Assembly (NCBI GenBank): GCA_002497765.1
Contig: DAET01000046.1
Coordinates: 88,988-152,987, forward strand
Direction: 5' to 3'
Length of the DNA stretch: 64,000 nucleotides
Source of the DNA: Euryarchaeota archaeon UBA486
Lineage (GTDB): Archaea; Thermoplasmatota; Poseidoniia; Poseidoniales; Poseidoniaceae
How positions within the stretch are numbered: position 1 is the stretch's first letter; the number at the start of each line of letters is the position of its first letter. The position numbers and the translations under genes were made by a program. The notes below the pieces were generated by a model. That model did no database searches and had not been told where the DNA came from. It saw nothing but the letters and a program-made list of their open reading frames with translations. This document shows positions 26,261 to 64,000 of this stretch, in pieces.

Positions 26261-26275
26261 CGATCACTCCGATGT

Positions 26276-27436: not shown

Positions 27437-27494
27437 GCTCCAAGGTGGACGGGGACCTCCTTATACCCTTTACGAACATGTTCGTGCGAACATG

Positions 27495-28118: not shown

Positions 28119-28135
28119 GGTTGCGCCTCGGTAGA

Positions 28136-29119: not shown

Positions 29120-29128
29120 GTCAACGGT

Positions 29129-30003: not shown

Positions 30004-30055
30004 GGTCCGAACGAAGGGAGGGCATCATTCAAACCTCACGCCTCCATGGCAAGCC

Positions 30056-31330: not shown

Positions 31331-31341
31331 TACCAACCCCT

Positions 31342-39607: not shown

Positions 39608-40228
39608 TCAATCGATGTTCTCGTCGCCAGGTGGGGCACGGCTGGCGTGGTTCAAGGCCACACCTGCCGCCATGAGGGCGATGGTGACCGAATACACGCC
39701 AACATCAATCCAACCCTTGTGGGCGATTCCGAAGTAAAGGTAGAACGCAAGACCGAGCAGGAGGCACCATGCAGCCATGGTTCGCTGGCCGCCGGCCACC
39801 GAGGTGTCGTTGAGGGCCGTCCAGGTATCGTTGATAACGAGGCCGCGGAACCAGTCTGCAACGGGTTGTTGCTGGTTGATGGTCTTGGAACCGAAGGCGA
39901 TGAGCGCTGCGCATCCGGCCATGAAGATGGTGTCACCAAGGACTTCGAAATGGAAGCCATCTTTTGCTTCGCCAAAGGCTGCGTTGGTGGCTTCAAAGGT
40001 GAGCAGGCCACCCCAGGAGACGTGGTAGGTCGGGTGAATCATGCCGAACATGTTCAGAGCGGCCAGGACCAATCCCCATAGGCCGACGCAGACCATGACG
40101 GACGCATAAACGGGCACCTTTCCGCTGGTGGATTGGGCGGTTGCATCGTCGCTCATGGGCCCTGCGACTTGCGAACTGCATTTAAGCACACCGAAACGGG
40201 TGAACTCCGAACGAAACCACGTCCTCAC
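39608..40228 (-). CDS. Hypothetical integral membrane protein (5-6 TM)
   Basis: Hydrophobic helices throughout; likely start at internal MSDDATAQ; 4-bp overlap with orc1/cdc6. Confidence 0.4.
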   Translation of the reverse strand: MRTWFRSEFTRFGVLKCSSQVAGPMSDDATAQSTSGKVPVYASVMVCVGLWGLVLAALNMFGMIHPTYHVSWGGLLTFEATNAAFGEAKDGFHFEVLGDTIFMAGCAALIAFGSKTINQQQPVADWFRGLVINDTWTALNDTSVAGGQRTMAAWCLLLGLAFYLYFGIAHKGWIDVGVYSVTIALMAAGVALNHASRAPPGDENID

Positions 40229-43847: not shown

Positions 43848-43864
43848 GCGGCGGCCTTCGTCTG

Positions 43865-45026: not shown

Positions 45027-46367
45027 ATGGGCTTCAAGCGCGTGCTGATTGCCAACCGCGGCGAAATCGCTCTCCGTATTCTTCGCACCCTCCGAGACAT
45101 GGGCATTGAGGCGGCCATCATTCACGGTCGCGAGGACCGTTTGTCCCTTCCCGTCCAAATGGCGGACATCGCCTACCCCAACTACCGAACCAACCCGCTT
45201 GATTCCTACTTGGACATCGAAGCCGTTGTGCAAGCCGCCAAGGAACTCGAATGCGACGCTGTTCACCCCGGCTACGGCTTTTTGGCCGAGAACGCCGCCT
45301 TCGTCGCTCGCCTCGAGGAAGAAGGCATCACCTTCATCGGCCCAGCCTCGGGCGTGATCACGCTGCTCGGCGACAAAATTGAGGCTCGCGCAGCGATGGA
45401 AGCCGCGGGGTTGCCCACGGCCAAAGGGTCCTCCGAACCCATCGCCAGCGCCGAGGTCGCCAGTGCGCTTGCGGATGAAATCGGCTACCCTGTCATCATC
45501 AAGGCAGCCGCCGGGGGCGGTGGCATCGGCATGCAGATCGTGCAGCAGGCCGACGAGTTTGAGAGTGCACTCAAGCTCTGTCAGTCGCGTGCGAAGTCGG
45601 CTTTTGGCGACGAGCGCGTCTTCGTTGAGAAGTACATTCAAGGCGCGCAGCACGTTGAATTCCAGGTGTTGGCGGACGGCAAGAAGGCCATCCATTTCGG
45701 CGAGCGCTTTTGTTCCATTCAACGTCGCCACCAGAAGTTGGTCGAAGAAGGGCCGTGGCTGACCGATGAGAAGCGAGCGGAAATCGGTGCTTTGGTCTGC
45801 AAGGGCGCTGAAGCCGTGGGCTACAAGGGCCTGGCCACCTTTGAGTTCCTGCGCGACGCCAACGGCGATTTCTATTTCCTCGAGGTTAACCCTCGTGTTC
45901 AGGTTGAGCACACGGTAACCGAACTCATCACCGGACATAATCTCGTGGAACTCGGTATCCGGGTGGCCCAGGGTGAAGCCTTGCCGATGGAGCAAGAGGA
46001 CATCACCTGGCGTGGACATGCCATTCAATGCCGATTGAACGCTGAGGACCCGCGTGAGTTTGTTCCAAGCCCCGGGCGCCTGTGGGAGTGCCATTTCCCC
46101 AGTGGATTTGGGATTCGCTGCGATACGCACGCCCATCCCGGCTACGAGATGCCAGGCTGTTTTGATTCCCTGCTGGCCAAGCTGTTGGTGTGGGGTAGGG
46201 ACCGTGAAGACGCCGTCCGTCGCATGAAAACTGCGCTGGATGAAACGATGATTACGGGCGTTGAACACCTGATTCCGCTGCACCGCCGTATCATGGACGA
46301 GGAAGATTTCAACAACGGCGACATCACGATTCAATACATTGACATGCATCAAGAGTTGCTGGGGTGA
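45027..46367 (+). CDS. Biotin carboxylase (ATP-grasp; AccC / PycA-type)
   Basis: MGFKRVLIANRGEIALRILRT…, …GYPVIIKAAAGGGGIGMQIV…, …EVNPRVQVEHTVTE…. Confidence 0.85.
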   Translation: MGFKRVLIANRGEIALRILRTLRDMGIEAAIIHGREDRLSLPVQMADIAYPNYRTNPLDSYLDIEAVVQAAKELECDAVHPGYGFLAENAAFVARLEEEGITFIGPASGVITLLGDKIEARAAMEAAGLPTAKGSSEPIASAEVASALADEIGYPVIIKAAAGGGGIGMQIVQQADEFESALKLCQSRAKSAFGDERVFVEKYIQGAQHVEFQVLADGKKAIHFGERFCSIQRRHQKLVEEGPWLTDEKRAEIGALVCKGAEAVGYKGLATFEFLRDANGDFYFLEVNPRVQVEHTVTELITGHNLVELGIRVAQGEALPMEQEDITWRGHAIQCRLNAEDPREFVPSPGRLWECHFPSGFGIRCDTHAHPGYEMPGCFDSLLAKLLVWGRDREDAVRRMKTALDETMITGVEHLIPLHRRIMDEEDFNNGDITIQYIDMHQELLG

Positions 46368-49931: not shown

Positions 49932-49938
49932 TGGGTGG

Positions 49939-50448
49939 TCAGGCTTCTCGCTTGGCTTTCTGCGCCAGCATGTTGTCGCGAATGGCCTTGGCCTTCTCCC
50001 ACTCGGCTTGCTCCTCCTCGGATTCGGGGGTGAATTGAGGTACAGGGATGGGTCGCATCATGGAATCAATGGCCACGAAAAAGAAGTAACCTTCGCAAAT
50101 AATGCTTTTTTCCCAGGTGGCCTTGCTCATCGTGTAGGCCGTCACCTTGGTGCACGCCGTATGGCTGCTGGTGTAGACCACTTGGCCGGACACCTCCAAC
50201 AGGTCGCCTTGCCGTGCCGGAGCGATGAAGGTCAGTGTGTCGATGGAGATGGTGACAAATTCACGATGCGCAAACTTGGCACAGGCGATGCCGCCCGCTT
50301 TGTCCATAAGGGAAAGAAGCCGCCCACCAAAGAGGGTGTTGTAGGCGTTGGTGTCCTGAGGAAACACCTCTTCGATGAGCGTCACTGGTTCGGTTGAGTA
50401 GGGCTCCATGACCCTTCCAAGCCGTTCACCCTCATAACTCATCTTCAC
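49939..50448 (-). CDS. Acyl-CoA thioesterase (hotdog fold, YciA/ACOT-like)
   Basis: …VFPQDTNAYNTLFGGRLLSLMDKAGGIAC…. Confidence 0.7.
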   Translation of the reverse strand: MKMSYEGERLGRVMEPYSTEPVTLIEEVFPQDTNAYNTLFGGRLLSLMDKAGGIACAKFAHREFVTISIDTLTFIAPARQGDLLEVSGQVVYTSSHTACTKVTAYTMSKATWEKSIICEGYFFFVAIDSMMRPIPVPQFTPESEEEQAEWEKAKAIRDNMLAQKAKREA

Positions 50449-50540
50449 CGTGCGGGGAAGATGTGCAGAAAACGGCGATGATGTCTTGAAAGCGACGAGA
50501 TTTTAGGGGGACAAACCTTCGCAGAGGTGCAGGTGACACC

Positions 50541-53500
50541 ATGTCAAATCAAACGCACCCGAAAACAAAGCCAATTTTCCTGATGTTGTTGATGCTTCTC
50601 GCTCCGTTTGCCTCCGCCAACGTTACCACGTTCGCTGACGGCAGTTCGGAGGTTGACATCGAAATCCGAGACGGGAACGATCTCGAAAATCTCGTGGATG
50701 GAGCGATTAACCTTCCCGACGGTGAAACGGTCACCGGGGCTTCGATGATCATCCACACCAAGATGGTTGAGCACGGTGCTCACTCCCGCATTGACCTCGA
50801 AACCACCCAGCGCGTCTGGAACCCCCAATACAACAACCAGCTCACGGAATTTTCCGACGAGTCCCTCTTCCAATACGAGGACGGCACCCAAGCCACACCT
50901 GTATCCCTCGTTTCCGAAGGCTTCCTGACCGACTTTGAGGGCACCAATGGTGGCTTTACCGATTCAACCAATCCTTCCTCCATGCCGTCCAGCGGCATCG
51001 GTTGGGAGCACGGGTCGCTCTCTGCGACCGACATTCCCGGCGGCTGCGCTTCGGGCCAGGAGTGTTGGGGGACCAACCTCGCCGACACCAATTACACCGA
51101 TGACAACGACGACGGCAACACGCCGCCTTCGTACCTCCCCTTCGTCGTCGCCATGACCAGCACCGACCTGTTCGTTGATCCGCTCCTCAAGAGCAAAACA
51201 GCCTTCTTTGATTCATGGTGGAACCTGGAAACTTCCACCGGCTCCCAACCGAACAGCAAACGTTTCTCTGATTGCGGCTACCTTCAGATTCGTTCCTCGC
51301 CCAACCCCGGCTTCCCTCCCGACGACAGCGGTTTTCAGGTCATCGCATTCGACCAGCAAGCCAGCACCGGTTTGGTGTACGGCACCAACTACGCTCAAGG
51401 CGGCGGCTCTGGAAACAACTGGGACGGCAAGATCACCAGCAACTGTGGCGGCCTGCAAAACGGTAGCCAGTGGGAGTGGGGTCTTGCCGGTTCCTCCACC
51501 ACGGCCCAAAACCCCACGGGCTGGAACAATCTCGCCGTCGATTTGACGGATTACATCGACGAGTACGTTCAACTTCGCTTCGTGCTTCACCACACCGGTC
51601 GTTCCGCCATGAACATCGACGACAACATGTCGGGCTGGTACGTCGACAACTTCCGATTGGGCGACCTCTTGCCTCAGAGCGCCAGCATGACCGTTCGTGG
51701 CATGACGCCGTCAACTTTGGGCGGCGAAAACCATCCCAACGGCTACGGCATTCTCACCGTCGAAGCCGAGACCTCCCTTTCGGCTACGCTGACCGTCGAC
51801 GTCCTCGACACCAACAACAACCCTGTCACGGGCAAGGACGGCTCCATGATGACCGGTCTTTCCGGCGACATCATCGAGTTGTGGAACATCGATTCGGCTG
51901 ATTACCGTGCTGTCAATCTAAAGTTCAACTTCGATTCGGGTCCCGACCGACTCTCAACGCCGATTCTCCACGGTTTCAGCATCGGTTCTCGCGTCGGAAC
52001 TGGATTCAACTTCTCGGCGATCGGACCGGTTCAAATCGATGGCGGCATTTGGCAAACGATGGGCGGTGGAGAGCCGATGATCTACGTTCCGAACCTGAAA
52101 CGAGACGCCTACACACCAGCGCTCGAGCGCAGCAAATTCAGCTACCCCATCACGGCCATGACGCCAGTCATCCAAGACGACTGCAGCGAATCGCCGTCCA
52201 TTGAGATCACGCCCACCGGTCAAACCACCAGTATCAGTGTCGAAAACGGCGTCAGGTCCACGTTCGATGATCCGCTGTTTGGCTTCAACGCCGTGACCTC
52301 GTATCTTGGGCCGTGCGACGTTGGTGGCATTTGGTTCGACTTGGAATTCGGACATCACGCCAAGAACGTTGAAATCGACGTGGCCAACGATGGCGATGTC
52401 GACTACGGCTTCACCGAGCCAGCGTTTGACATGTTTGGACGCCAAACCAAGTTCGTCTCGGGTACCGTTGACGGCGTCAACTACGCCGCCGATGACGCCA
52501 CCCTCACCCTTGGCGTGAACGGTCAAGCGACCGGGGGCTTCTTCCTCCTGCCCGAAGGGGCTGACATTACGGCCGCCGATTTCGGTATGGACCAAATTTC
52601 CATTCGCTCGAACAGTGACCCGACCGAAGGCTTCGAACTCACACTCATGGCAGGTTCCCAATCCGTTGTGCTTGGCGACATGCCCAACAGCACCACGCTG
52701 GTTCAAGAGATGCTCAACCAGCCGATGGACTTCGTCGGCGCTCTGCAGAGCCTGATGACCAACCCCTCCGTTGCAGGGACGCATCAGGACGAATTCGGCC
52801 GCTACTGGGTCATGCTCCGCTTCATGGTTGACTCGCCAAACGCCTCCTCGGGAACTTCGTTGGACATCGTCGACCTTGACATCGTCTACGATTACGGTAC
52901 CACCCTTGACGAGACCGACGGCTTTGACCTCGAACTCAATCAGGGCGTTGCCTTGTGGACCGGTGGCGCAACCGCAACGGTCCCCGTCGCAGTGTCCAGT
53001 TCCACCGGTGGCGGTGTGATGTTGAGCGACCTGAGCGTCTCCTCCAGCACCGGCTACAGCAACACGCTGACCCTCACCGACAACCCGGTGGGCTTGTACC
53101 CCAACGGCGACATCTATGAGGTGGTCACCACACACGCTGTCGACCCGTTGACCGGCACTTCGCTGGCTGAGGCATGGCTGACCTTTGAGTCCGAATCTGG
53201 CTACATCAAGCTCTCGTGGAGCGATTTCATGTCCTTCGCTGAAGCCAGCGACGAACACGACCACATCCAACTCGAATCCACGTCCTCGGTGGCGGACATC
53301 ACCAACGGCAAGGAGATCACCTGGCACTTCCGTGTCAACCCGACCTGGGACGACACGCCGGCCGTTCGCATGTATGCTGGTCTCACGGCCACCAACGGCG
53401 TCAACGGACTCCCCGACGCTGTGCTGCTTGAACCATCGGTTGGCAACGCCGTGGAAAACGATGCAGGTATCACCTCCTTTGAGTTGCAAAACAGCATCGG

Positions 53501-56411: not shown

Positions 56412-56420
56412 GGCCCTTGC

Positions 56421-57221
56421 ATGTCCTCGTTGTGGACCGATACGGTCTGGGAGGACCCTGACGGTGGACGGGTCATCGTTCACGGGACGATGCCAACGGT
56501 GGTGTACCCCAACGCCATGCGACCACGGGCGACCTGGCACGGTTTGGCGCTGCTTGAATCGCCCGATGTCGTTGATCTGTGGATTCAGGAAGAAGCCGAT
56601 GAAGCGGAATCGCAAGGCATCAACCTCACGCACGCGCTGCTCTCCGGCGGGGCCTTCGGCAAATACATCGAAGGCATTGAGACGCTTGAGGCCCTTCAGG
56701 GCGGTCGTTTCCCCGACCCGGAACCCCGCCGGCTTCAACGAAACGCCGACCGGCACGGCCGGGCGGTCTTCTTCATCGAACCCTTGGCCGATGATGAGGA
56801 CTGGGGCGATTACTTGACGCAGGAAGCAAGAGCCGTCTCACACTGGCGAAAATTACTGGGCATGGTACGCGTGGGGAAGCGATGGAAAAAGAGCGTCAAG
56901 CAACATCTGTTCAACGCTCAACCCCCGCCCAAGGGCCAATCCGTGGACTATTCGACAGCGAGCGTGTTGGCCGCTGCTTGGTGGGAGCTTTCTGAGTGGT
57001 TGAGCACGCCCGCTCTCGCCAACCGACGCAACGAGCGCTACGCTGCGCGTGTACGCGGCGCCCTCGCCTCGCTTCGTTCCGACCTTGGCGATGACGCCAC
57101 CCTGCTGCTCGTGGTTCACCAGCCTCATGCAGCGGCCATGGTGAAGGCGCTGGATGCAAACAGGACGGTGGAGGAGATTTCATCAACAGCCACCACCTCC
57201 ACCCACACGGAGGAAGAGTGA
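56421..57221 (+). CDS. Hypothetical protein (266 aa), first of four co-directional genes following the giant surface-protein gene
   Basis: 10 bp after the giant gene stop; no family recognised. Confidence 0.45.
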   Translation: MSSLWTDTVWEDPDGGRVIVHGTMPTVVYPNAMRPRATWHGLALLESPDVVDLWIQEEADEAESQGINLTHALLSGGAFGKYIEGIETLEALQGGRFPDPEPRRLQRNADRHGRAVFFIEPLADDEDWGDYLTQEARAVSHWRKLLGMVRVGKRWKKSVKQHLFNAQPPPKGQSVDYSTASVLAAAWWELSEWLSTPALANRRNERYAARVRGALASLRSDLGDDATLLLVVHQPHAAAMVKALDANRTVEEISSTATTSTHTEEE

Positions 57222-57222
57222 G

Positions 57223-57765
57223 ATGGCGACCGGAAGCATCGATGTCCGCGTTGAAAACCAACTCGTTCGCTTTGTTTGCCCGACGCCCCTCGACCACGAC
57301 CGTGTGGTCGCTGAGGTCGGTGGTCAACGCAACAGTGGTGTGGTGATCAAAGCGATGGAGCGGCCACGAGCCACCCTCGTCATCGACGAAGAGGGGCGCA
57401 TCGTCGTTCACGGCACCCACCGCGTAGAAGCGGCTCGCGCAGCTGCCAAGGAACTGCTGCTCCGCATGGGCATGGACGACAGTGGGCTGGTCGCCGAGAT
57501 GGGCCCCGTTGTTGTCTCGTTCCAGTTTGAGCAGTCCGTCAACCTCGAAGCCATTCCGGCCTCGCTTCCTTCGGGCTCAGCTGAATACGATGCCCGCCTG
57601 GGATGCACCACGTTGACCGATACGCGCCACAGTTTGACCGTTCAGATTTGGCCCAATGGAAAGTGCGTCGTCGCCGACGCTCGACACCCCAACATGGTCG
57701 CGATGGCTGCCGTCTATTGGAAGGGCGTGTTCGCCGACCAAGGATGGTTCGTGCAACGGATTTGA
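57223..57765 (+). CDS. Divergent TATA-box-binding-protein-fold protein (two TBP-like repeats, 180 aa)
   Basis: Repeat 1 VENQLVRFVC…LVIDEEGRIVVHGTHRVEAARAAAKELLLRMG and repeat 2 VVSFQFEQSVNLEAI…AEYDARLGCTT…LTVQIWPNGKCVVADARH…AVYWKGV follow the TBP repeat pattern (IENIVAS…LIFSSGKxVxTGAKS…A…L). GGAGG SD; start overlaps the upstream stop. Confidence 0.5.
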   Translation: MATGSIDVRVENQLVRFVCPTPLDHDRVVAEVGGQRNSGVVIKAMERPRATLVIDEEGRIVVHGTHRVEAARAAAKELLLRMGMDDSGLVAEMGPVVVSFQFEQSVNLEAIPASLPSGSAEYDARLGCTTLTDTRHSLTVQIWPNGKCVVADARHPNMVAMAAVYWKGVFADQGWFVQRI

Positions 57766-57774
57766 GGGGCTCGC

Positions 57775-58641
57775 ATGGTCTACGACGGTCCGATTTTGGA
57801 CAACCATTTCCACCTCAACCGCCGGGGTCTGTTTCTGGATGCGGCTCGTGCCTTCCAACGGGTCGGCGGAACCGACATCGTGCTGGTTCATTGCCCTGAT
57901 TTCACTGCGCCGCCTGAATCGCTGGCCGGTCACGAAGCGGCATACAGGGACACCGTCGCCATGGCGCAGTCGGTTCGAGATGAGGTTGGCTTGGGCGTTC
58001 GTGTGGTGCTTGGCCCTCACCCAGCGGCCTTTGCTCATCAGTTCGAGCGGTGGGTCGGCGATGAGGGCGCAGCTGGCAAGGAGCGAGCGGTCGAGAATTA
58101 CCGCCACAGCATCGAGGCCGCCCTCGCGTTGGTTCACGAAGGGCACGCCCACGCCATCGGCGAAGTCGGAAGGCCCCACTGGCCTGTGTCCGATGAAATC
58201 TGGGACCTTTCCAATGAATTGCTGGATGAAACCATGCACCTTGCCGCCCAAGAAGGCATTCCCTTGCAACTGCACGTGGAAGGGGAGAGTGAGGACACCT
58301 ACCCCGACCTCGCCAAGCGAGCGCTTCGCCAGGGCATGGATCTGAAAAAACTCGTTCGCCACTATTCGCCCCCAGATGTGCGAACGGAGAACACCCACGG
58401 CCTCACGCCGAGTGTGTTGTGCGGGAAGGGAGCGCTTGACCGGTTGGTGGAGACGCACACGAAAGCCAAACACGGTTTTTTCCTCGAGACCGACTACATG
58501 GACGACCCTAGGCGACCAGGCGCTGTCCTCGGGCCCAAAACCGTGCCAAAGCGAACACAACAATTGCTCGAGGCCGGTGTGGATGAAGAGGTCATGTGGA
58601 ACACCCACAGCGAATTGCCAACTTCGGTGTATGGTGCATGA
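57775..58641 (+). CDS. TatD-related metal-dependent hydrolase (TIM-barrel, COG1099-like)
   Basis: N-terminal …ILDNHFHLN… metal-binding motif; …HAIGEVGRPHW…, …LHVEGES…. Confidence 0.6.
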   Translation: MVYDGPILDNHFHLNRRGLFLDAARAFQRVGGTDIVLVHCPDFTAPPESLAGHEAAYRDTVAMAQSVRDEVGLGVRVVLGPHPAAFAHQFERWVGDEGAAGKERAVENYRHSIEAALALVHEGHAHAIGEVGRPHWPVSDEIWDLSNELLDETMHLAAQEGIPLQLHVEGESEDTYPDLAKRALRQGMDLKKLVRHYSPPDVRTENTHGLTPSVLCGKGALDRLVETHTKAKHGFFLETDYMDDPRRPGAVLGPKTVPKRTQQLLEAGVDEEVMWNTHSELPTSVYGA

Positions 58642-58725
58642 AGGTGGAAGGGGAACGCCATCTTCTTCACCTCAACGCCCCATCACATTCATGAAAGAGA
58701 ATCACCACGTAAGGGCAGGAGGGAG

Positions 58726-59817
58726 ATGTTGATGCGACGCCGATTTGGTTCAATGCTCACAGCGTTGTTGCTGTGTTGCCTCCTCCCGGTTGCCGCTGCG
58801 CAGACACCTACGGCACCTGGCGTTGAAATCGATTGCGATGACAAGCAACCGGAACTTGATGTCCACCCCCTCAACGACCCCGTGGTTGAAATCACCTGCA
58901 CGGTGAAGAACCCCTCCTCGTTTGAGGAAACCATCAGCGTTGAGAAGGAATGGGATGGCCTTGAAGTCGACATGATGCTGGAGGAGGACACCTTCACACT
59001 TGGCCCCGATGAGGAAGAAGACTTCACGGTCACCTTCTCCGGCCAAACCCGCCTTTCTGCTTCACTCTCCTACGACTTCACCCTTTCAGCCACGGTCACC
59101 AACGTCGGCATGTTGGATTGGCCCGAAGCCCTCGCCTCCAATGCCTCCGTGAGCGGCGATCTGAACATCGCCACCTTCGGCATGGTTGATCTCGATGTTT
59201 CGGACAAAAGCACCCGAACCATGGCCGAGGGCGATGAGGTGAAAATCAGCTTCCAGTTCCAGAACAACGGCAACGATGAGGACAAAATTCGAGTGTCCAT
59301 CACCAACGCTGCTGAGTTGGAAGAGGTCGGCTTCTCCTTCCCAGGTGGCACCTTTGTGGCGGAGGACGTGGCAGAGGACGGCGTCTCAACGGTCAGGGAA
59401 TTGTCCGTCCGAGCCCCGTCCGAAATCCTTGAGGACGCTCGCTACCAAGTCACCTTCCAGGCTCAGAGCGAAAACGATGACAAGGCCCCCGTCAGCGAAA
59501 CCAGCATCTCGCTCCAACTCGAAGCCAGCGCTGCAGCCGGTGGCTTGGGTGGTGGCTTGGAGGAAGTGGACAAGGACACCCTCGTCATGTACGGTAGCAT
59601 TGGTGCAGCGGTCTTGTTCGGCTTGATTTTCGTTGTTGCGCTCGCTCGAACGTTGCGTCGTCGTGCCAACGCCCAACCGACCTACGTCCCGCCGGTTGAA
59701 CTTGAGGACGATGAGGTTGATGAGGACGAGGACGGCGAGTTTGATTTCTCTGAACTGGACGATTTGTTCTCCGATGACGAAGAGGATGAGTTCGACGACG
59801 TTTTCGCCGACCTCTGA
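58726..59817 (+). CDS. Secreted/anchored surface protein (363 aa): signal peptide, beta-rich ectodomain, C-terminal TM + RRR + strongly acidic tail
   Basis: N-terminal MLTALLLCCLLPVAAAQT; C-terminal AAVLFGLIFVVALA-RTLRRR then …DDEVDEDEDGEFDFSELDDLFSDDEEDEFDD…. Confidence 0.5.
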   Translation: MLMRRRFGSMLTALLLCCLLPVAAAQTPTAPGVEIDCDDKQPELDVHPLNDPVVEITCTVKNPSSFEETISVEKEWDGLEVDMMLEEDTFTLGPDEEEDFTVTFSGQTRLSASLSYDFTLSATVTNVGMLDWPEALASNASVSGDLNIATFGMVDLDVSDKSTRTMAEGDEVKISFQFQNNGNDEDKIRVSITNAAELEEVGFSFPGGTFVAEDVAEDGVSTVRELSVRAPSEILEDARYQVTFQAQSENDDKAPVSETSISLQLEASAAAGGLGGGLEEVDKDTLVMYGSIGAAVLFGLIFVVALARTLRRRANAQPTYVPPVELEDDEVDEDEDGEFDFSELDDLFSDDEEDEFDDVFADL

Positions 59818-59896
59818 GGGCTAATTTTGGCCGTTCGGCTCAACGCCTCAACTCGGCCGATGTGACACGATTTCATGAGGAACACTCAAAGGCTTG

Positions 59897-59912
59897 GTGT
59901 AGCGCACTACAC
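59897..59912 (+). promoter_or_regulatory. Perfect inverted repeat GTGTAG-CGCA-CTACAC ~20-35 bp upstream of the fabI start (candidate operator)
   Basis: Read directly from sequence. Confidence 0.25.
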
Positions 59913-59934
59913 CTAATCCCCACGGAGGTTTTTC

Positions 59935-60726
59935 ATGCTCGGTCTAGAAGGGAAAACGGCCTTTGTGTTTGGCGTTGCCAGTGAAGATTCGATCGCTTGG
60001 GCGATTTGCAAGCAGTTGGCTGCTGCTGGGGTCACCCTGTATTTGGGGTACCAGAAGCGATTTATGAGCCGTGTGTTCAAGCTCAAGGACCAACTTCCTG
60101 CCATCGGAGGGTTCTATCCGCTCGACGTTGCATCGGACGCAACGACGCAGGAATTCTTCACGGCCTTTGCTGCCGAACACCCTGGCAAAAAAGCCGACAT
60201 TCTGGTTCACGCCATCGGCTTTGCCCCTCGGGCCTGCTTTGACCGGCCGGTCTTGTTTGTCGAGGACGAGGACATCAACACGGCGATGACCATTTCAGCC
60301 AATTCACTGCAACGGTGCCTCAAGCATGCCCTTCCCTACCTCAATCCGGGTTCGTCCACCATCACGTTGACCTACGCTGCTTCCAATCGCTTTGTCCCCA
60401 GCTACGGCATCATGTCCATGGCCAAGGCTGCCCTCGAGTGCTGGACCCGTGAATTGGCCTGTCATCTCGGCCCAGAAGGCCACCGCGTGAACGCCATCTC
60501 ATCGGGTCCCATTCGGACCATCGCCGCCAGTGGTATTCCTGGATTTGACCGCATCCTCGACCATGTTGAGGCCAATGCGCCGCTGCGAAGAAACGTCAGT
60601 CAGGATGACGTCGCAGGTGCCACGCTCTGGCTCGCCAGCCCCCTCGCCGCCGGTGTCACCGGCCAATGCATCTACGTTGATGCGGGGTATTCGATCACGA
60701 TGGTGCCTGAGAGCATCATGAACTGA
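59935..60726 (+). CDS. fabI: Enoyl-[acyl-carrier-protein] reductase, NADH-dependent (FabI; SDR family)
   Basis: …GKTAFVFGVASEDSIAWAI… (FabI-type NAD fold); catalytic …YGIMSMAKAALE… (Y-x6-K); …SSGPIRTIAAS…. GGAGGT SD 7 nt upstream. Confidence 0.8.
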   Translation: MLGLEGKTAFVFGVASEDSIAWAICKQLAAAGVTLYLGYQKRFMSRVFKLKDQLPAIGGFYPLDVASDATTQEFFTAFAAEHPGKKADILVHAIGFAPRACFDRPVLFVEDEDINTAMTISANSLQRCLKHALPYLNPGSSTITLTYAASNRFVPSYGIMSMAKAALECWTRELACHLGPEGHRVNAISSGPIRTIAASGIPGFDRILDHVEANAPLRRNVSQDDVAGATLWLASPLAAGVTGQCIYVDAGYSITMVPESIMN

Positions 60727-60735
60727 GGTGAGACC

Positions 60736-63700
60736 ATGACGTTGACAACCGAAGACGGCAAACCTTGCGAAGGAATTGATCAGGGCCCCTTTGAACCGAT
60801 TGCGGTGATTGGCCTCGGGGCGCTGATGCCCGATGCACATGACATCAATGCCTTTTGGCAGAACATCTTGGACGCCAAGGTCAGCATTCGAACCTTGCCT
60901 GAGGGCCGCTGGCCCGGGCCGGTGGACCATTTTTGGAAAGAAGGTGGACCGGGTGCCCACACCGAGGGGTATTCCTATGCCAAGATCGGAGCGGTGGTCA
61001 GCGATGCGGAGTTTGATTGGCGGCGTTGGCGGCAACCGCCCGGGACGCTTCCACAAATCGACCCGTGCCAACTCTGGGCCGTGACCGTCTCGGCTGACGC
61101 CATTGAGCATGCAGGCTACGATGGTGAAACCAACGACATCGACCGAACCCGAACCGGTGTTGTCTTTGCCAACGCGCTGGGCGGCGAAAACAGGAACTTG
61201 TCCAATCTGCGCGTGTGGTCGCATCACACCGGTGCCGTGGCCAAGGCGCATGGGCTTACAGACGACCAGGTGGAAGCGTTCGCCGAGGCGATGACGGAAG
61301 GGACTCCTCGAATCGATGAAGACACGATGCCCGGAGAACTGGCCAACGTCGTTTCTGGTCGAGTGGCCAACCTGCTCGACTTGCAGGGCCCAAACCACGC
61401 CATGGATGCGGCCTGCGCTTCGTCGATGGCTGCTGTCTTGGATGCGTGCCGTCTTCTCCAAACCCGACAGGTCGACGTCATGCTCGCCGGTGCTTCGGAC
61501 CGGACGATGGACCCGGCCACCTTTGCCAAATTCTCGGCGATCGGTGCACTTTCGCCAACGCACTCCTCGCCGTTCGATGCTCGTGCCAACGGGTTCGTCA
61601 TGGGCGAGGGCGCCGGCGTGCTTGTGCTCAAGCGCCTGAGCGATGCCATCCGGGATAGCGACGAAATCTACAGCGTTATCCGGGGCATTGGCGGCTCGTC
61701 CGACGGACGAGGAAAGGGCATCACGGCGCCCAGTCAGCGAGGCCAAATTCAGGCGATTGCTCGAGCCTACAATCAGGCAGGGTACGATGCCTCCAGCGTG
61801 GAACTCGTGGAAGCCCACGGCACATCCACCAAAGTAGGCGATGCCACGGAACTGTCCACACTCTCTCGGTTGTGGACAGGTGTTGAAGGCGCTGGCAACG
61901 TGGCCGTAGGCTCGATCAAATCCCAAATTGGGCACCTCAAGGCAGCAGCCGGCATCGCTGGCATCATGAAATCGGTCATGGCCTTGCACCACCGAACCAT
62001 CCCTCCCAGTGCGAACTTCGAAACACCCAACCCAACGGTTGATTGGTCCAACATTCCGTTCTTCGTCCCCACCGCTCCTCTCGAATGGCCTCGCCCTTCA
62101 TCGCATCCACGCCGTGCTGGAGTCTCGGCTTTCGGTTTCGGCGGCACGAACTTCCACATCGCTCTGGAAGGCTACGAACCGGACTACCACGCACCCATGG
62201 CGGCGGAGTGGGATGCTCGATGGGCCGCCTACAGTGGCCGGGGGCCTGTTTCTGCCCCGTCCATCTTTGACGGCACCCTTCCAGCCACCATGACCCATGA
62301 TGAACTCAAGGCGGTGGAGGGTGGCGTGCTGCTGTTGTCTGCGCCGTCGCTCGACGCTTTGCAGGCGGCCGTGACCGCCGTTTCCTTCGAAGGGGCGTTG
62401 TTCGATGACGACCCTCGAGGTCGCCGCCTCTCGGAGGCGCTCCAGCAAGCCAGCGCATCGTTCGATCCACAGGCGCCGTTCAGGATGGCCTTGGTGGCGA
62501 CGTCGTGGGCTGAATTTGCCAAGCGGCAAACGCTGGCGGGTCAAGCGATGCTCGATGCAGAGAAGTGGGGCTTTTTGCAAGCCCAAGGCGTACTGATTAC
62601 CGATCAGCCCGCCATGCCGGCCGAAGCGAAAACCGTCCACATGTACCCAGGTCAGGGCAGTCAATACGTCGGCATGACGGCCGATTTGGTTCAACGGTTC
62701 ACCGCACCAGCAGAGGTTTGGCGACAAGCGGATGAGACCATGGTTGAGGTTCTCGGCGGTGAAACGCTCTCCGGATTCGTCCTTCGTTCCTCGTTGACCA
62801 AGGACGAACTCAAGGAAGCAGAGCACAAGCTGAAGCAAACAGAATACACACAACCTGCCATGCTCACGGCGGATTTGGCCATTGAGCGGACGCTTGGCTC
62901 CTTTGGCCACACGCCCGACATGGTTGCCGGTCATTCCCTCGGCGAATACGCTGCCCTGATGTCCTCCGGTATTCTCGACATGGACGGTGCACTTCGTGCT
63001 GCGGCTGCTCGCGGGACGGAGATGGGCGCCGTTGAGATTGATGACAAAGGCCTGATGGCCAGCGTCACCGCTCCGTACGAAGTCGTTGAAGCCGTCCTTG
63101 AGGCGACGGAAGGCTACGTGATTGCAGCCAACAAGAACTCGCCCAAGATGACGGTCATCGCCGGTGAAACAGCGCCGGTCAAGGCAGCGATGGCGAGCTT
63201 TGAGGAGCAGGGCTTCTCCTGCGTGGCCCTGGCCACCTCACATGCGTTCCACTCCAGAATTGTTGCTCCAGCCAACGAACCCCTTCGCCGGTTTTTGGAA
63301 GGTTTGGAGATTCGATGGCCATCGGTCCCCATCACCGCTAACGTTGACGGTGCCTTCTACCCCATGCAAGGGGCTGATTCCAAAGCGGCGATTTTGGAAC
63401 AACTCGCGCCACAAATGGCCTCTTCGGTCGAGTGGACCAAACAGGTTGAAACCATGTACGACGCAGGCGGCCGCGTCTTTGTCGAAGTCGGCCCCAAGCG
63501 TGCGTTGACCATGTTTGCCATGCAGATTCTCGAGGGCAAACCTCACGTCCCCGTGATGACGAACCACCCCAAACAAGGCGGCATTGCAAGCCTGCTGACC
63601 GCCATCGGTGCACTGGCCCTTGCCGGACGCCCACCTGTCTGGCCACCGTTGGATTCGGATGCACTGCAGGACGGGTTCAAAGCCGGCCCGATTGAGGCGC

Positions 63701-64000
63701 GCACTGCTTCCTCACCAACACCTGCGGCTAGCACGGCCGAACTTGAATCACTGCGTGTCCGTGCCCGACCCCTTCCAGGCAGCGGTGCGGCCGCACCGGC
63801 CGTCGCGACCCATGCAGTGGCTGCTGCCACCGTTGTCCAAACCGGTCCGTTGGATTCGGATTATGCACGCGACCGGGCCATTCGTGCCTATGTGGGCGAC
63901 CGCATTGCCGCCTACAGCGGCTATCCGGCTTCCTTCTGCCACGGGCACGTCTCGCTGACCGACGGGCTCGGCCTCTCCCCCCAGCAGGTGCAGAGCGTCG
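60736..64000 (+). CDS. Type I polyketide / PUFA-synthase-like (PfaA/HglE-like) multidomain protein, 3' partial: ketosynthase, linker, acyltransferase, continuing beyond window end
   Basis: Not in the supplied ORF track because no stop lies inside the window; translated by hand from ATG 60736. KS motifs …GPNHAMDAACASSMAAV…, …EAHGTSTKVGD…, …KSQIGHLKAAAG…; PfaA-like …FAKFSAIGALS…PFD…; AT motif …GHSLGEYAAL…. GAGGTGA SD 10 bp after the fabI stop. Confidence 0.8.
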   Translation, partial: MTLTTEDGKPCEGIDQGPFEPIAVIGLGALMPDAHDINAFWQNILDAKVSIRTLPEGRWPGPVDHFWKEGGPGAHTEGYSYAKIGAVVSDAEFDWRRWRQPPGTLPQIDPCQLWAVTVSADAIEHAGYDGETNDIDRTRTGVVFANALGGENRNLSNLRVWSHHTGAVAKAHGLTDDQVEAFAEAMTEGTPRIDEDTMPGELANVVSGRVANLLDLQGPNHAMDAACASSMAAVLDACRLLQTRQVDVMLAGASDRTMDPATFAKFSAIGALSPTHSSPFDARANGFVMGEGAGVLVLKRLSDAIRDSDEIYSVIRGIGGSSDGRGKGITAPSQRGQIQAIARAYNQAGYDASSVELVEAHGTSTKVGDATELSTLSRLWTGVEGAGNVAVGSIKSQIGHLKAAAGIAGIMKSVMALHHRTIPPSANFETPNPTVDWSNIPFFVPTAPLEWPRPSSHPRRAGVSAFGFGGTNFHIALEGYEPDYHAPMAAEWDARWAAYSGRGPVSAPSIFDGTLPATMTHDELKAVEGGVLLLSAPSLDALQAAVTAVSFEGALFDDDPRGRRLSEALQQASASFDPQAPFRMALVATSWAEFAKRQTLAGQAMLDAEKWGFLQAQGVLITDQPAMPAEAKTVHMYPGQGSQYVGMTADLVQRFTAPAEVWRQADETMVEVLGGETLSGFVLRSSLTKDELKEAEHKLKQTEYTQPAMLTADLAIERTLGSFGHTPDMVAGHSLGEYAALMSSGILDMDGALRAAAARGTEMGAVEIDDKGLMASVTAPYEVVEAVLEATEGYVIAANKNSPKMTVIAGETAPVKAAMASFEEQGFSCVALATSHAFHSRIVAPANEPLRRFLEGLEIRWPSVPITANVDGAFYPMQGADSKAAILEQLAPQMASSVEWTKQVETMYDAGGRVFVEVGPKRALTMFAMQILEGKPHVPVMTNHPKQGGIASLLTAIGALALAGRPPVWPPLDSDALQDGFKAGPIEARTASSPTPAASTAELESLRVRARPLPGSGAAAPAVATHAVAAATVVQTGPLDSDYARDRAIRAYVGDRIAAYSGYPASFCHGHVSLTDGLGLSPQQVQSV

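What the first reader, a model, noticed from the sequence alone, without database searches (positions are those of the whole stretch)
59897..64000. FabI enoyl-ACP reductase operonically coupled to a PfaA/PUFA-synthase-like type I PKS (KS-AT…) in an archaeal genome
Archaea generally lack fatty-acid synthase and polyketide machinery. Here a bacterial-type FabI is followed 10 bp later (with SD) by a very large ORF starting with a full ketosynthase (Cys …DAACASS…, His …EAHGTSTKVGD…, His …KSQIGHLKAAAG…, PfaA-like …FAKFSAIGALS…PFD…) and then an acyltransferase (GHSLGE). It is still open at the window end, at least 1088 codons. This looks like an iterative PKS/PUFA-synthase-like assembly line with a trans-acting enoyl reductase. 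That fits proposals that some planktonic euryarchaea make bacterial-type fatty-acyl lipids, but it may be a distinct polyketide or polyunsaturated product.
Basis: partly seen in the sequence, partly recalled or inferred. Interest (0 to 1): 0.75.

Follow-up and report, generated by a model that had tools for sequence, protein, structure and literature searches.

The report
Archaeal fatty-acid-like synthase operon (FabI + PKS)
The window ends in a real operon, conserved across the Marine Group II archaea examined, that pairs a bacterial-type enoyl reductase with a giant iterative fatty-acid/polyketide synthase; it is a known bacterial cluster type with a swapped reductase, is not a PUFA synthase, and may explain how these archaea make fatty-acyl lipids.

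Summary
FabI (59935-60726) is followed after 9 nt by an ORF open from 60736 to the window end, with KS and malonyl-type AT domains. The contig is archaeal and not chimeric: it carries Cdc6/Orc1, a TBP-like gene and an archaeal CoA-synthesis fusion, shows no composition break, and matches near-identical contigs up to 1.6 Mb.

Intact orthologues (98% aa identity) show the whole gene, about 2,950 aa: KS-AT-KS2-3xACP-KR-DH, followed by a PPTase gene. fabI lies directly upstream in 76 of 76 loci and the PPTase downstream in 61 of 61. dN/dS is 0.00-0.05.

The architecture matches the "Type R" Pfa-like secondary-lipid synthase described in bacteria in 2011, whose product is unknown. It is not a PUFA synthase: it scores below the PfaA cut-off and has no PfaB, PfaC or PfaD. 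Relatives outside Poseidoniales carry acyl-CoA-dehydrogenase-like, other SDR or fused PfaD-type partners where Poseidoniales have FabI.

Most likely it is a self-contained iterative synthase making a long, largely reduced fatty acyl chain, with FabI as the trans enoyl reductase.

One oddity: nearly all ACP domains in this family carry Thr where the phosphopantetheinyl Ser should be.

The parts
59924..59929 (+). Shine-Dalgarno-like GGAGGT, 5 nt upstream of the fabI start codon
   Evidence: Read from the sequence. Function is inferred.
59935..60726 (+). fabI: SDR-type enoyl-ACP reductase, 263 aa. Proposed trans-acting ER of the synthase.
   Evidence: Pfam adh_short_C2 3.6e-70. Best NCBIfam models are all FabI but below equivalog cut-offs. 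The ~55 best PDB matches are all enoyl-ACP reductases, best 1ULU at 2e-57, with Y147/Y157/K164 conserved. Directly upstream of the PKS in 76/76 loci. dN/dS 0.00-0.016.
60727..60735 (+). 9-nt intergenic spacer GGTGAGACC with SD-like GGTGA. This spacing suggests co-transcription and coupled translation.
   Evidence: Sequence. The same tight spacing is seen in orthologous loci. Operon status is inferred.
60736..64000 (+). 5' 1088 codons of the ~2,950-aa iterative type I synthase gene, cut by the window end. Full architecture from orthologues: KS1-AT-KS2-ACPx3-KR-DH.
   Evidence: Open frame. Orthologues: L084 2949 aa, L086 2956 aa, L004 2960 aa as single ORFs. L083 is 98.6% nt identical to window 49926-64000.
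60793..62277 (+). KS1 domain (aa 20-429) plus the KS C-terminal extension (aa 431-514). Catalytic Cys227 (61414-61416), His361 (61816-61818), His400 (61933-61935).
   Evidence: Pfam PF00109, PF02801, PF16197. Motif positions.
62635..63561 (+). Acyltransferase domain (aa 634-942). GHSLGE Ser734 (62935-62937), Arg759, and the HAFH motif (63241-) typical of malonyl-CoA specificity.
   Evidence: Pfam Acyl_transf_1 2.8e-36. NCBIfam fabD TIGR00128 4e-58. Motifs. Malonyl specificity is inferred from the established HAFH/YASH rule.
63562..64000 (+). Ala/Pro-rich post-AT linker leading into the second KS, which begins just beyond the window end.
   Evidence: Translation compared with L084.
49939..50448 (-). 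Hotdog (4HBT) acyl-CoA thioesterase, ACOT/YciA-like. A candidate chain-release or editing enzyme, with low confidence that it belongs to the system.
   Evidence: Pfam 4HBT 1.1e-15. PDB acyl-CoA hydrolases down to 3.7e-27. Also found next to the block in the 58%-identity lineage L002 and in L083-L086. The link to the synthase rests on neighbourhood only.
45027..46367 (+). AccC-like biotin carboxylase. A possible malonyl-CoA supply, with low confidence that it belongs to the system.
   Evidence: NCBIfam acetyl-CoA carboxylase BC subunit models, 556 bits vs cut-off 597. ACC genes lie directly beside the homologous clusters in 4 of 5 non-Poseidoniales loci. Here it sits 13.5 kb away with no CT or BCCP beside it.

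Best explanation
The window comes from a Poseidonia-like Marine Group II archaeon. Its end carries the start of a three-gene operon: fabI, a ~2,950-aa iterative type I synthase (KS1-AT-KS2-ACP-ACP-ACP-KR-DH), and a 4'-phosphopantetheinyl transferase.

Proposed mechanism.
1. The dedicated PPTase converts the three tandem ACP domains to their holo form.
2. The malonyl-specific AT loads malonyl units from malonyl-CoA.
3. The two KS domains, both with intact Cys-His-His triads, carry out the decarboxylative condensations. They probably divide the work by chain length or by priming versus elongation.
4. KR and DH reduce and dehydrate the beta-keto group.
5. Free-standing FabI reduces the enoyl-ACP in trans.
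6. The cycle repeats to give a long, largely saturated (possibly partly hydroxylated or mono-unsaturated) fatty acyl chain.
7. There is no TE or reductase domain, so release must be by a separate thioesterase or acyltransferase.

Shown versus inferred. Gene content, domain order, catalytic residues, conservation and synteny are shown. FabI acting on this synthase, the nature of the product and the release step are inferred.

Origin. The system is the archaeal version of the bacterial 'Type R' Pfa-like secondary-lipid synthase. It was probably acquired once by the ancestor of the Poseidoniales and has been inherited vertically since.
For: Domains and motifs are established. KS2 aligns to FabF with its Cys, His and His in the catalytic positions. 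KR shows GGGSGVT and YAAAN, and DH shows H-x3-G-x4-P.

Together, KS, AT, ACP, KR, DH (in cis) and FabI make up every activity of one fatty-acid elongation cycle.

Synteny: fabI directly upstream in 76/76 loci, PPTase downstream in 61/61, KS2 and KR-DH present in 61/61. dN/dS is 0.00-0.05. FabI and KS2 are the most conserved parts (91-100% and 90-100% identity where KS1-AT is 72-99%).

Related clusters outside Poseidoniales lack a cis ER. In its place they carry an acyl-CoA-dehydrogenase-like gene (3 of 5 loci), two adh_short_C2 SDRs, or an N-terminal segment I read as a PfaD/NMO-type ER (Asgard P0078, assignment by eye only). A redox partner is therefore a recurrent accessory that gets swapped between lineages.

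ACC subunits are adjacent in 4 of those 5 loci, which fits a malonyl-CoA-fed lipid synthase.

The architecture and the downstream PPTase match Type R. Similar proteins occur in Roseiflexus, Elusimicrobia and Acidobacteria, the Type R host taxa.

All Poseidoniales KS1 sequences form one clade in an NJ tree.

The contig is archaeal, with no composition break.
Against: - There is no biochemical evidence for any member of this cluster type. The Type R product was still listed as uncharacterised in 2011, and I found nothing later.
- FabI scores below every NCBIfam FabI equivalog cut-off, so its substrate could differ.
- Bacterial Type R clusters were described without any ER, so full reduction is not proven. 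Acyl-CoA-dehydrogenase-like partners could instead introduce double bonds rather than remove them.
- All three ACPs have Thr instead of the canonical Ser. E. coli ACP S36T is known, from my own recollection, not to be modified by AcpS. It therefore remains to be shown that these carrier domains become holo at all.
- Only KS1 and AT lie inside the window. Everything downstream is taken from orthologues.
- The NJ tree has no support values and lacks canonical PfaA and HglE references.
Confidence: 0.7

Rival explanations
1. The same machinery is not a 'secondary lipid' pathway. Instead it is the main fatty acid synthase of Marine Group II archaea, and it supplies acyl chains for the proposed mixed or bacterial-type (G3P, ester-linked) membrane lipids.
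For: The operon appears order-wide and is under strong purifying selection. FabI occurs in both Poseidoniaceae and Thalassarchaeaceae. Published work says MGII lack G1P dehydrogenase, have G3P dehydrogenase and PlsC-like acyltransferases, and that no IPL-GDGTs were found in MGII-dominated water (PMC6461757, PMC6962369). Archaea normally lack ACP-based FAS, so a self-contained synthase with its own ER and PPTase is what such a host would need.
Against: No acyltransferase (PlsC, PlsY or PlsX) lies in the operon or in the 64-kb window regions that I annotated. The bacterial hosts of Type R clusters keep a normal FAS II, which implies a specialised product there. I could not survey whole genomes for other KS or ACP genes. 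There are no lipid data from any MGII culture.
Confidence: 0.3
2. It is a PUFA synthase, and makes polyunsaturated fatty acids in the way pfaABCD does.
For: The best NCBIfam model is TIGR02813 omega_3_PfaA. It has tandem ACPs and a KS-AT...KR-DH layout like PfaA. The PfaA-like motif FAKFSAIGALS is present.
Against: The score of 835 bits is below the cut-off of 1010, even for the full-length orthologue. No PfaB, no PfaC with FabA-type DH/isomerase domains and no PfaD lie within 10 kb either side in many loci. An extra KS sits between AT and the ACPs. The reductase is a FabI-type SDR, not an FMN-dependent PfaD. Without a FabA-like isomerase there is no established route to methylene-interrupted cis double bonds.
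Confidence: 0.07
3. The synthase makes an unreduced or partly reduced polyketide (a polyene, or an enediyne-core-like or heterocyst-glycolipid-like chain) as a specialised metabolite. FabI would then be an unrelated neighbour, or would act only at particular cycles.
For: KS-AT-ACP-KR-DH with a hotdog thioesterase nearby recalls enediyne PKSE systems (comparison from my own knowledge). The 2011 description of Type R does not list an ER. antiSMASH-type surveys file such clusters under T1PKS or hglE-KS.
Against: fabI is glued to the synthase with a 9-nt spacer in 76/76 loci and is the most conserved gene of the block. Other lineages place a different redox enzyme at the same cluster. ACC genes, not tailoring enzymes, are the recurrent neighbours. 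No cyclases, glycosyltransferases, oxygenases or transporters sit in the operon.
Confidence: 0.12
4. The FabI-PKS end of the window is a bacterial contaminant or an assembly chimera joined to archaeal DNA.
For: Both genes have bacterial affinities. Three of the 80 best GTDB loci are labelled as bacterial MAGs: Verrucomicrobiales, Rhodobiaceae and Salipiger.
Against: The same block (giant surface protein, 266-aa gene, TBP-like, TatD, fabI, PKS, PPTase) recurs on independent assemblies, including contigs of 334 kb, 360 kb, 1.2 Mb and 1.59 Mb and the 2.06-Mb MG-II chromosome. TBP-like and TatD lie upstream in 48/48 loci. The tetranucleotide correlation of 59897-64000 with the rest of the window is 0.921, inside the range of the other chunks (0.919-0.969), and GC3 is 0.67-0.68 against 0.62-0.75 for the other genes. 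The three 'bacterial' loci I mapped by tblastn carry the archaeal-type fabI-PKS block (shown for L010), so they look mis-binned.
Confidence: 0.01

Closest known systems
'Type R' secondary-lipid (Pfa-like) synthase gene cluster of Shulse & Allen 2011 (PMC3098273): Koribacter, Solibacter, Elusimicrobium, Roseiflexus
   Same: A single giant pfaA homologue with the order KS-MAT-second KS ('CLF')-tandem ACPs (3-6)-KR, immediately followed by a PPTase gene. It is often linked to acetyl-CoA carboxylase genes. The product is unknown. The nearest non-Poseidoniales sequence relatives include Roseiflexus, Elusimicrobia, Acidobacteria and many Chloroflexota, at 37-48% identity.
   Different: The host is an archaeon; that paper reported none. 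A FabI-type SDR gene is fused into the operon upstream, whereas the bacterial relatives I inspected have an acyl-CoA-dehydrogenase-like gene or other SDRs, and the 2011 description lists no ER. The so-called CLF keeps a full Cys-His-His triad, here and in the bacterial relatives. A PKS-type DH follows the KR. ACC genes are not adjacent.
PfaA of bacterial PUFA synthases (pfaABCDE; NCBIfam TIGR02813)
   Same: It is the best-scoring curated family. KS, malonyl-AT, tandem ACPs, KR and PKS-type DH lie on one polypeptide. It has a separate ER and a separate PPTase, and it works iteratively.
   Different: It scores below the family cut-off (835 vs 1010). There is no PfaB, no PfaC (FabA-type DH) and no PfaD. 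It has an extra KS inside the protein. Its ER is an SDR (FabI), not an FMN TIM-barrel. Its ACP motif is LGIDTVKQAE rather than the LGIDSIKRVEIL type (the latter quoted from memory).
FabI, the SDR enoyl-ACP reductase of bacterial type II FAS (e.g. T. thermophilus 1ULU, E. coli 1QSG)
   Same: Full-length SDR with Y-x6-K and the extra Tyr. The ~55 best PDB matches are all enoyl-ACP reductases.
   Different: It is encoded in an archaeon, in an operon with a type I megasynthase rather than alongside discrete Fab proteins. It is below the NCBIfam equivalog cut-offs. Its presumed substrate is an acyl chain on a megasynthase ACP domain.
Type I fatty acid synthases (animal FAS; CMN-bacterial/fungal FAS)
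   Same: It works like one: every elongation-cycle activity is present and is used iteratively with malonyl-CoA.
   Different: The domain order and evolutionary lineage differ. The ER is supplied in trans. It has two KS domains, three ACPs and no TE or MPT release domain. Membership was not tested and is not claimed.
Enediyne PKSE / heterocyst-glycolipid HglE-type iterative PKSs
   Same: They are Pfa-related iterative KS-AT-ACP-KR-DH enzymes with an associated PPTase. PKSE also has a hotdog thioesterase.
   Different: Neither has a second KS. In PKSE the PPTase is fused and no ER is used. Hgl systems need HglC, HglD and others, none of which is present here. This comparison is from my own knowledge and was not tested.

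Membership tests
Type R Pfa-like secondary lipid synthase (Shulse & Allen 2011) | One pfaA homologue with domain order KS-MAT-CLF(second KS)-ACP(3-6)-KR | tested here: met
   Full-length orthologues (98% aa identical over the window part) show KS, AT, a second ketoacyl-synt match, 3 PP-binding domains, KR and a PKS DH. The window itself holds only KS and AT.
Type R Pfa-like secondary lipid synthase (Shulse & Allen 2011) | PPTase gene immediately downstream | tested here: met
   Pfam ACPS plus 4PPT_N on the next ORF. Present downstream in 61/61 loci with enough sequence. It lies outside the window.
Type R Pfa-like secondary lipid synthase (Shulse & Allen 2011) | KS groups phylogenetically with the Koribacter/Solibacter/Elusimicrobium/Roseiflexus sequences | tested here: inconclusive
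   The nearest non-Poseidoniales hits include Roseiflexus sp., Elusimicrobia and Acidobacteria MAG proteins with the same architecture. In an unbootstrapped NJ tree the Poseidoniales clade groups with them. The five reference sequences, canonical PfaA and HglE were not available to include.
PfaA / PUFA synthase (pfaABCDE) | Scores at or above the TIGR02813 (omega_3_PfaA) cut-off | tested here: not met
   534 bits for the window fragment and 835 bits for the full-length orthologue, against a cut-off of 1010.1.
PfaA / PUFA synthase (pfaABCDE) | Companion genes: pfaB (AT), pfaC (KS-CLF with two FabA-type DH domains), pfaD (FMN-dependent ER) | tested here: not met
   None is present within 10 kb either side in L001, L002 and L083-L086. 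The only neighbours are fabI and the PPTase.
FabI (SDR enoyl-ACP reductase) | SDR fold with the catalytic Tyr-x6-Lys and the second Tyr; closest relatives are experimentally defined FabI proteins | tested here: met
   adh_short_C2 at 3.6e-70. The ~55 best PDB matches are all enoyl-ACP reductases, with Y147/Y157/K164 conserved against 1ULU.
FabI (SDR enoyl-ACP reductase) | Reaches an NCBIfam FabI equivalog cut-off | tested here: not met
   The best is NF005615 at 220.6 bits vs 391. All the others are also below cut-off. This lowers the claim of orthology to bacterial housekeeping FabI, but not the claim of enoyl-reductase chemistry.
FabI (SDR enoyl-ACP reductase) | Reduces trans-2-enoyl-ACP with NAD(P)H | not testable with these tools
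   Needs an enzyme assay with the synthase's ACP-bound substrates.
Chain-length factor (CLF / KS-beta) | KS-like domain that lacks the active-site cysteine | tested here: not met
   KS2 has Cys, His and His aligned with the catalytic triad of FabF 1J3N. These residues are conserved in bacterial and Asgard relatives. It should be called a second KS, not a CLF.
Acyl carrier protein domains (Pfam PP-binding) | Conserved Ser in the (D/E)LG(I/V/L)DS motif that receives phosphopantetheine | tested here: not met
   All three domains read ELGIDTVKQAEI. The Thr aligns with the Ser of PigH, S. coelicolor ACP and AcpM. Thr occurs in 223 of 225 motifs in the fetched loci and in 51 of 52 in the listed homologues. 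The fold-level match to PP-binding is met (2.4e-26).
Archaeal origin of the contig (Poseidoniales / Marine Group II) | Archaeal informational and core genes on the same DNA, near-identical DNA in Poseidoniales genomes, and no composition break | tested here: met
   Cdc6/Orc1 at 40225-41466, a TBP-like gene at 57154-57765, and the archaeal PPAT plus GTP-dependent dephospho-CoA kinase fusion at 37455-38492. 99% and 98% aa matches in the Thermoplasmatota and Poseidonia sp. MAGs L003 and L004. Tetranucleotide and GC3 results.

The most novel reading that the evidence does not exclude
The carrier domains of this synthase family would be phosphopantetheinylated on threonine by the dedicated, highly divergent PPTase that is always co-encoded. 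I could find no description of that carrier-protein chemistry. In Marine Group II archaea the resulting holo-synthase, with FabI, would be the missing enzymatic source of the fatty acyl chains in the hypothesised mixed (archaeal/bacterial-type) membranes of the ocean's most abundant surface archaea.
Probability: 0.2. Interest if true: 0.85.

Novelty: new variant of a known kind. Interest (0 to 1): 0.55.

Why it matters
Marine Group II archaea are reported to be the most abundant planktonic archaea in surface oceans (PMC6461757). They are uncultured and their membrane lipids are unknown. Published genomics says they lack G1P dehydrogenase but have G3P dehydrogenase and 'bacterial-like fatty acid genes'. 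However, neither of the two large comparative studies I could read mentions polyketide or enoyl-reductase genes in its main text, and Tully 2019 also lacks any mention of acyl carrier proteins.

This work identifies a concrete, complete and testable enzyme set for fatty-acyl synthesis: fabI, one ~2,950-aa synthase and a PPTase. It was present in every locus examined and is under strong purifying selection. Three genes could be expressed heterologously, which makes the 'lipid divide' question for this group directly testable.

It also ties the archaeal genes to an uncharacterised bacterial cluster type (Type R), so one experiment would inform both. Finally, it flags a family-wide Thr-for-Ser change at the phosphopantetheine site. 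If that Thr is functional, it would extend what is known about carrier-protein modification.

Tried and rejected
- **Chimera or contaminant.** Rejected on synteny in Mb-scale contigs, archaeal markers on the same DNA, and tetranucleotide and GC3 checks.
- **Two-gene synthase.** The first loci (L001, L002) showed the PKS split into two genes. This is an artefact of frameshifts in long-read assemblies, because short-read and other assemblies give a single ORF of 2,916-2,997 codons.
- **PUFA synthase membership.** Rejected.
- **Second KS as a CLF.** Rejected because the catalytic triad is intact.
- **Literature.** None turned up a paper that analyses the MGII FabI-PKS operon or a threonine phosphopantetheine site. 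Villanueva et al. 2017 is not held in the library, so I know its claims only through citing papers.
- **PPTase against PDB.** No sequence hit even at E<=1. Structure prediction of the PPTase was not possible because only window sequences or proteins returned by the homologue search may be submitted.
- **One window protein** (11093-12451) had no exact match in the contig index.
- **FabI homologue search.** The 120 listed hits that carry a source name are all archaeal, and the rest are unnamed close relatives, so the bacterial donor lineage of fabI could not be determined.
- **Rfam and tRNA scans.** They found only one tRNA-Gly, far from the locus.

Full report
**1. What is in the window**

The ORF at 59935-60726 (+) encodes a 263-aa SDR.
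- It matches Pfam adh_short_C2 over the full profile at 3.6e-70.
- Its 13 best NCBIfam hits are all FabI-type enoyl-ACP reductase models, though none reaches its equivalog cut-off (best 220.6 vs 391 bits).
- The roughly 55 best matches among solved structures are all enoyl-ACP reductases, led by T. thermophilus FabI 1ULU at 2e-57. The catalytic Y147, Y157 and K164 are conserved against 1ULU.

The stop codon ends at 60726. After the 9-nt spacer GGTGAGACC, an ATG at 60736 opens a frame that runs uninterrupted to base 63999, which is 1088 codons.

That frame contains two domains:
- A complete ketosynthase: Cys227 in DAACASS, His361 in EAHGTST, His400 in GHLKAAAG.
- An acyltransferase with GHSLGE and the malonyl-type HAFH motif.

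**2. The DNA is archaeal and not chimeric**

The same window carries several archaeal markers:
- Cdc6/Orc1 at 40225-41466 (-).
- A TBP-like gene at 57154-57765.
- The archaeal fusion of phosphopantetheine adenylyltransferase with GTP-dependent dephospho-CoA kinase at 37455-38492.

Composition shows no break:
- GC runs at 0.52-0.62 throughout.
- The tetranucleotide profile of 59897-64000 correlates at 0.921 with the rest of the window. That is inside the range of the other fourteen 4.1-kb chunks (0.919-0.969).
- GC3 of fabI (0.68) and the PKS (0.67) falls within the range of the other genes (0.62-0.75).

Independent assemblies confirm the arrangement:
- The exact FabI protein is indexed in 378 blocks of the public assembly collection.
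- It lies on contigs of 334 kb and 1.59 Mb with the same neighbours.
- One of those contigs (L083) is 98.6% identical in DNA to window 49926-64000.

A scan of one genome per GTDB species found 242 genomes encoding a relative. Of the best 80, 77 are titled Poseidonia, Poseidoniaceae, Poseidoniales, Euryarchaeota or Thermoplasmatota, including the 2012 MG-II chromosome CM001443.1. Three are titled as bacterial MAGs. Those contigs were included in my tblastn mapping, and the rows I inspected (L010) show the archaeal-type fabI-PKS block, so they look mis-binned.

**3. The rest of the gene and the operon**

Long-read assemblies split the synthase into two or three pieces (L001, L002, L083, L085). 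In short-read and other assemblies it is a single ORF of 2,916-2,997 codons, so the splits are frameshift errors.

The best proxies for the window's gene are L004 and L084, both 97.9% aa identical over the 1088 window codons. Their full proteins (2,960 and 2,949 aa) read as follows:
- KS1 (aa 20-480).
- AT (aa 634-940).
- A second KS (about aa 1195-1660).
- Three tandem ACP domains.
- KR, with GGGSGVT and YAAAN.
- A PKS-type DH, with H-x3-G-x4-P.

The second KS aligns with FabF 1J3N, and its Cys, His and His sit in the catalytic positions. It is therefore not a cysteine-less chain-length factor.

The next gene encodes a 250-270-aa PPTase. Its Pfam ACPS and 4PPT_N hits are weak but above cut-off, and it has no sequence match in the PDB even at E<=1.

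Conservation across the fetched loci:

| Feature | Loci with feature / loci with enough sequence |
|---|---|
| fabI directly upstream of the PKS | 76/76 |
| PPTase downstream | 61/61 |
| KS2 and KR-DH present | 61/61 |
| TBP-like and TatD within 10 kb upstream | 48/48 |

dN/dS between the window and three orthologues is 0.000-0.016 for fabI and 0.025-0.048 for KS-AT.

**4. What it is related to**

The closest proteins (58-98% identity) come from Poseidoniales MAGs. The next tier (37-50%) comes from several groups:
- Chloroflexota/Anaerolineae, including Roseiflexus.
- Elusimicrobia, Acidobacteria, Spirochaetota, Myxococcota and Actinomycetota.
- Ca. Entotheonella.
- Other Thermoplasmatota and Asgard archaea.

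The relatives I read in full share the KS-AT-KS2-ACPn layout.

This is the 'Type R' cluster of Shulse & Allen (2011, PMC3098273). [quoted passage not shown] They found it in Koribacter, Solibacter, Elusimicrobium and Roseiflexus. It is sometimes linked to acetyl-CoA carboxylase genes, and its product is uncharacterised. That paper reports no archaea.

In an unbootstrapped NJ tree of KS1, rooted on KS2, all Poseidoniales sequences form one clade. Its neighbour is the Entotheonella protein, and the clade groups with the other Type-R-like sequences. One ancient transfer followed by vertical descent is the simplest reading, but the tree lacks support values.

**5. It is not a PUFA synthase**

- TIGR02813 (PfaA) is the best curated model, but it scores 534 bits for the window fragment and 835 bits for the full-length orthologue, against a cut-off of 1010.
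- No pfaB, no pfaC (with FabA-type DH domains) and no pfaD lies within 10 kb either side.

**6. Why FabI is probably the trans enoyl reductase**

The megasynthase has KS, AT, ACP, KR and DH but no ER. FabI supplies exactly the missing step.

Five related clusters outside Poseidoniales were inspected, plus one protein read directly:

| Locus or protein | Redox partner | ACC genes adjacent |
|---|---|---|
| L089 (Chloroflexota) | Acyl-CoA-dehydrogenase-like gene beside the PKS | Yes |
| L090 | Acyl-CoA-dehydrogenase-like gene beside the PKS | Yes |
| L093 | Acyl-CoA-dehydrogenase-like gene beside the PKS | Yes |
| L092 | Two adh_short_C2 SDR genes between the KR-DH gene and the PPTase | No |
| L091 (other Thermoplasmatota) | Not seen; contig ends within the PKS | Yes |
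| Asgard protein P0078 | N-terminal segment I read by eye as a PfaD/NMO-type ER, fused in front of KS1 (no domain scan run) | Not examined |

A redox partner is therefore a recurring accessory that different lineages have filled with different enzyme families. FabI is the Poseidoniales solution. This is an inference from comparative genomics and not a demonstration.

It also makes biological sense. By established knowledge, a bacterium can borrow FabI from its own type II FAS, whereas an archaeon generally has none and must carry its own.

**7. Proposed mechanism**

1. The PPTase makes the ACPs holo.
2. The AT loads malonyl-CoA.
3. KS1 and KS2 condense.
4. KR, DH and FabI fully reduce each unit.
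5. Iteration gives a long, mostly saturated acyl chain.
6. Release is in trans.

A hotdog acyl-CoA thioesterase (49939-50448, -) is a conserved neighbour in both the window lineage and the 58%-identity lineage. However, it is separated from the operon by unrelated genes, so I list it only as a candidate. An AccC-like biotin carboxylase lies 13.5 kb upstream and is likewise only a candidate.

I cannot decide whether the product is a specialised 'secondary lipid' or the bulk membrane fatty acid. The second possibility is the one that bears on the lipid-divide debate.

**8. An unexpected feature: Thr at the phosphopantetheine site**

All three ACP domains read ELGIDTVKQAEI. In alignments to PigH, S. 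coelicolor ACP and mycobacterial AcpM, the Thr occupies the position of the phosphopantetheinylated Ser.
- Thr is found in 223 of 225 such motifs in the fetched loci. The exception is L002, which has ELGVDSVKQAE.
- Thr is found in 51 of 52 motifs in the bacterial and archaeal homologues.
- The core of ACP1 and ACP2 contains no serine at all.

The domains are invariant, the synthase is under strong purifying selection, and these are its only carrier domains. The simplest reading is that Thr is the attachment site and that the always-co-encoded, divergent PPTase is adapted to it.

I found no literature on such a site (one search returned nothing). From my own recollection, E. coli ACP S36T is not a substrate of AcpS. 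This feature lies outside the window and needs mass spectrometry to settle.

**9. Prior knowledge and novelty**

- Villanueva et al. 2017 is not held in the library. [quoted passage not shown]
- Neither of the two large MGII comparative studies uses the words polyketide or enoyl in its main text, and Tully 2019 also has no 'acyl carrier' (Rinke 2019 was not searched for that term). Both discuss only fatty-acid degradation (PMC6461757, PMC6336850).
- A marine BGC survey lists T1PKS as the second largest BGC class in archaeal genomes (PMC10304266).
- PKS transcripts from Thermoplasmatota MAGs have been seen in the Cariaco Basin (PMC9902471).
- Public records already auto-annotate these genes as FabI and as type I PKS or acyltransferase-domain proteins.

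The genes are therefore known to exist. What appears undescribed is:
- their identity as a Type R synthase;
- the FabI substitution;
- the intact second KS;
- the Thr carrier sites.

I rate it a new variant of a known kind and of moderate interest. The interest would be considerably higher if the Thr modification or a membrane role were shown.

**10. Limits**

- Only KS1 and AT are inside the window. All downstream anatomy comes from orthologues.
- No reference PfaA, HglE or Type R proteins could be put in the tree.
- Whole-genome content (other KS or ACP genes, Pls acyltransferases) could not be surveyed.
- All paper searches are confined to the held open-access library.

Noticed in passing
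L084:16070-16830 (orthologue of the window gene, beyond window end); also L001-L086: All three tandem ACP domains have Thr in place of the phosphopantetheinyl Ser (ELGIDTVKQAEI). Thr is in 223/225 motifs in the loci and 51/52 in bacterial and archaeal homologues. ACP1 and ACP2 contain no Ser at all. One lineage (L002) and one deltaproteobacterial protein (P0082) have Ser.
   Followed up: partly
L084:14370-15790 (aa ~1195-1660 of the synthase, beyond window end): The domain that the literature calls a 'CLF' in Type R synthases keeps a full Cys-His-His triad. It is also the most conserved part of the protein (90-100% identity where KS1-AT is 72-99%).
   Followed up: yes
L084:19623-20423; L004:18834-19652: The operon's PPTase is very divergent. 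It has only weak Pfam ACPS/4PPT_N hits, has no PDB sequence match at E<=1, and evolves faster than its neighbours (54-94% identity).
   Followed up: partly
window 56421-58641: A 266-aa protein with no family, a TBP-like protein (one clear TBP repeat, 1.2e-11) and a TatD-family hydrolase always lie just upstream of fabI. TBP-like and TatD are present in 48/48 loci, and the block also occurs in the 58%-identity lineage. No link to the synthase is evident.
   Followed up: partly
window 50541-56411 (+) and 58726-59817 (+): A 1,956-aa protein with no Pfam match has an N-terminal signal-like segment, a C-terminal membrane helix and a very acidic tail. A 363-aa protein has the same kind of C-terminal helix and acidic tail. 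Both are presumably cell-surface proteins. The giant gene is absent from the L002 lineage, where the 4HBT thioesterase sits much closer to fabI.
   Followed up: no
window 42597-44938 (+): Adjacent genes encode an FAD/NAD(P)-binding reductase (FAD_binding_1 + NAD_binding_1) and a membrane FA_hydroxylase-family enzyme (weakly OlsE-like, 104 bits vs cut-off 475). This is a possible lipid hydroxylase/desaturase with its electron donor, lying 15 kb from the synthase.
   Followed up: no
window 45027-46367 (+): An AccC-like biotin carboxylase (556 bits vs cut-off 597) stands alone, with no carboxyltransferase or BCCP gene beside it. In contrast, ACC subunits directly flank the homologous bacterial clusters.
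   Followed up: partly
window 37455-38492 (+): A single gene fuses archaeal phosphopantetheine adenylyltransferase to the GTP-dependent dephospho-CoA kinase (DUF359). These are the last two steps of CoA synthesis, and CoA is the donor of the phosphopantetheine arm.
   Followed up: no
window ~14800-32000 (seen through L088): This stretch holds type IV pilus/archaellum-type assembly genes (T2SSE, two T2SSF). It also holds a run of beta-oxidation-like genes (two enoyl-CoA hydratases, 3-hydroxyacyl-CoA dehydrogenase, aldehyde dehydrogenase) with a PaaA/PaaC-family protein. The same region therefore carries fatty-acid degradation genes.
   Followed up: no
L010, L037, L066 (GTDB records NZEQ01000014.1, CALDQY010000187.1, CAXQWT010000010.1): Three contigs with a 73-88% identical copy of the synthase are deposited in MAGs named Verrucomicrobiales, Rhodobiaceae and Salipiger bermudensis. 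L010 shows the archaeal fabI-PKS-PPTase block in my mapping. These are probably binning errors in public genomes.
   Followed up: partly
L001, L002, L021, L043, L083, L085: The 8.8-kb synthase gene is broken into 2-4 ORFs in these assemblies (several of them pilon-polished long-read contigs), whereas most other assemblies have one ORF. Gene callers therefore report many 'partial' PKS proteins of 1,600-1,900 aa for this family.
   Followed up: yes
L001:21841-22494 (-): In the 88%-identity relative, a CDP-archaeol synthase (CarS) gene lies 2.3 kb downstream of the PPTase. An archaeal ether-lipid gene and the fatty-acyl synthase are thus neighbours there. This region is not within the window and is not seen in L002.
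   Followed up: no
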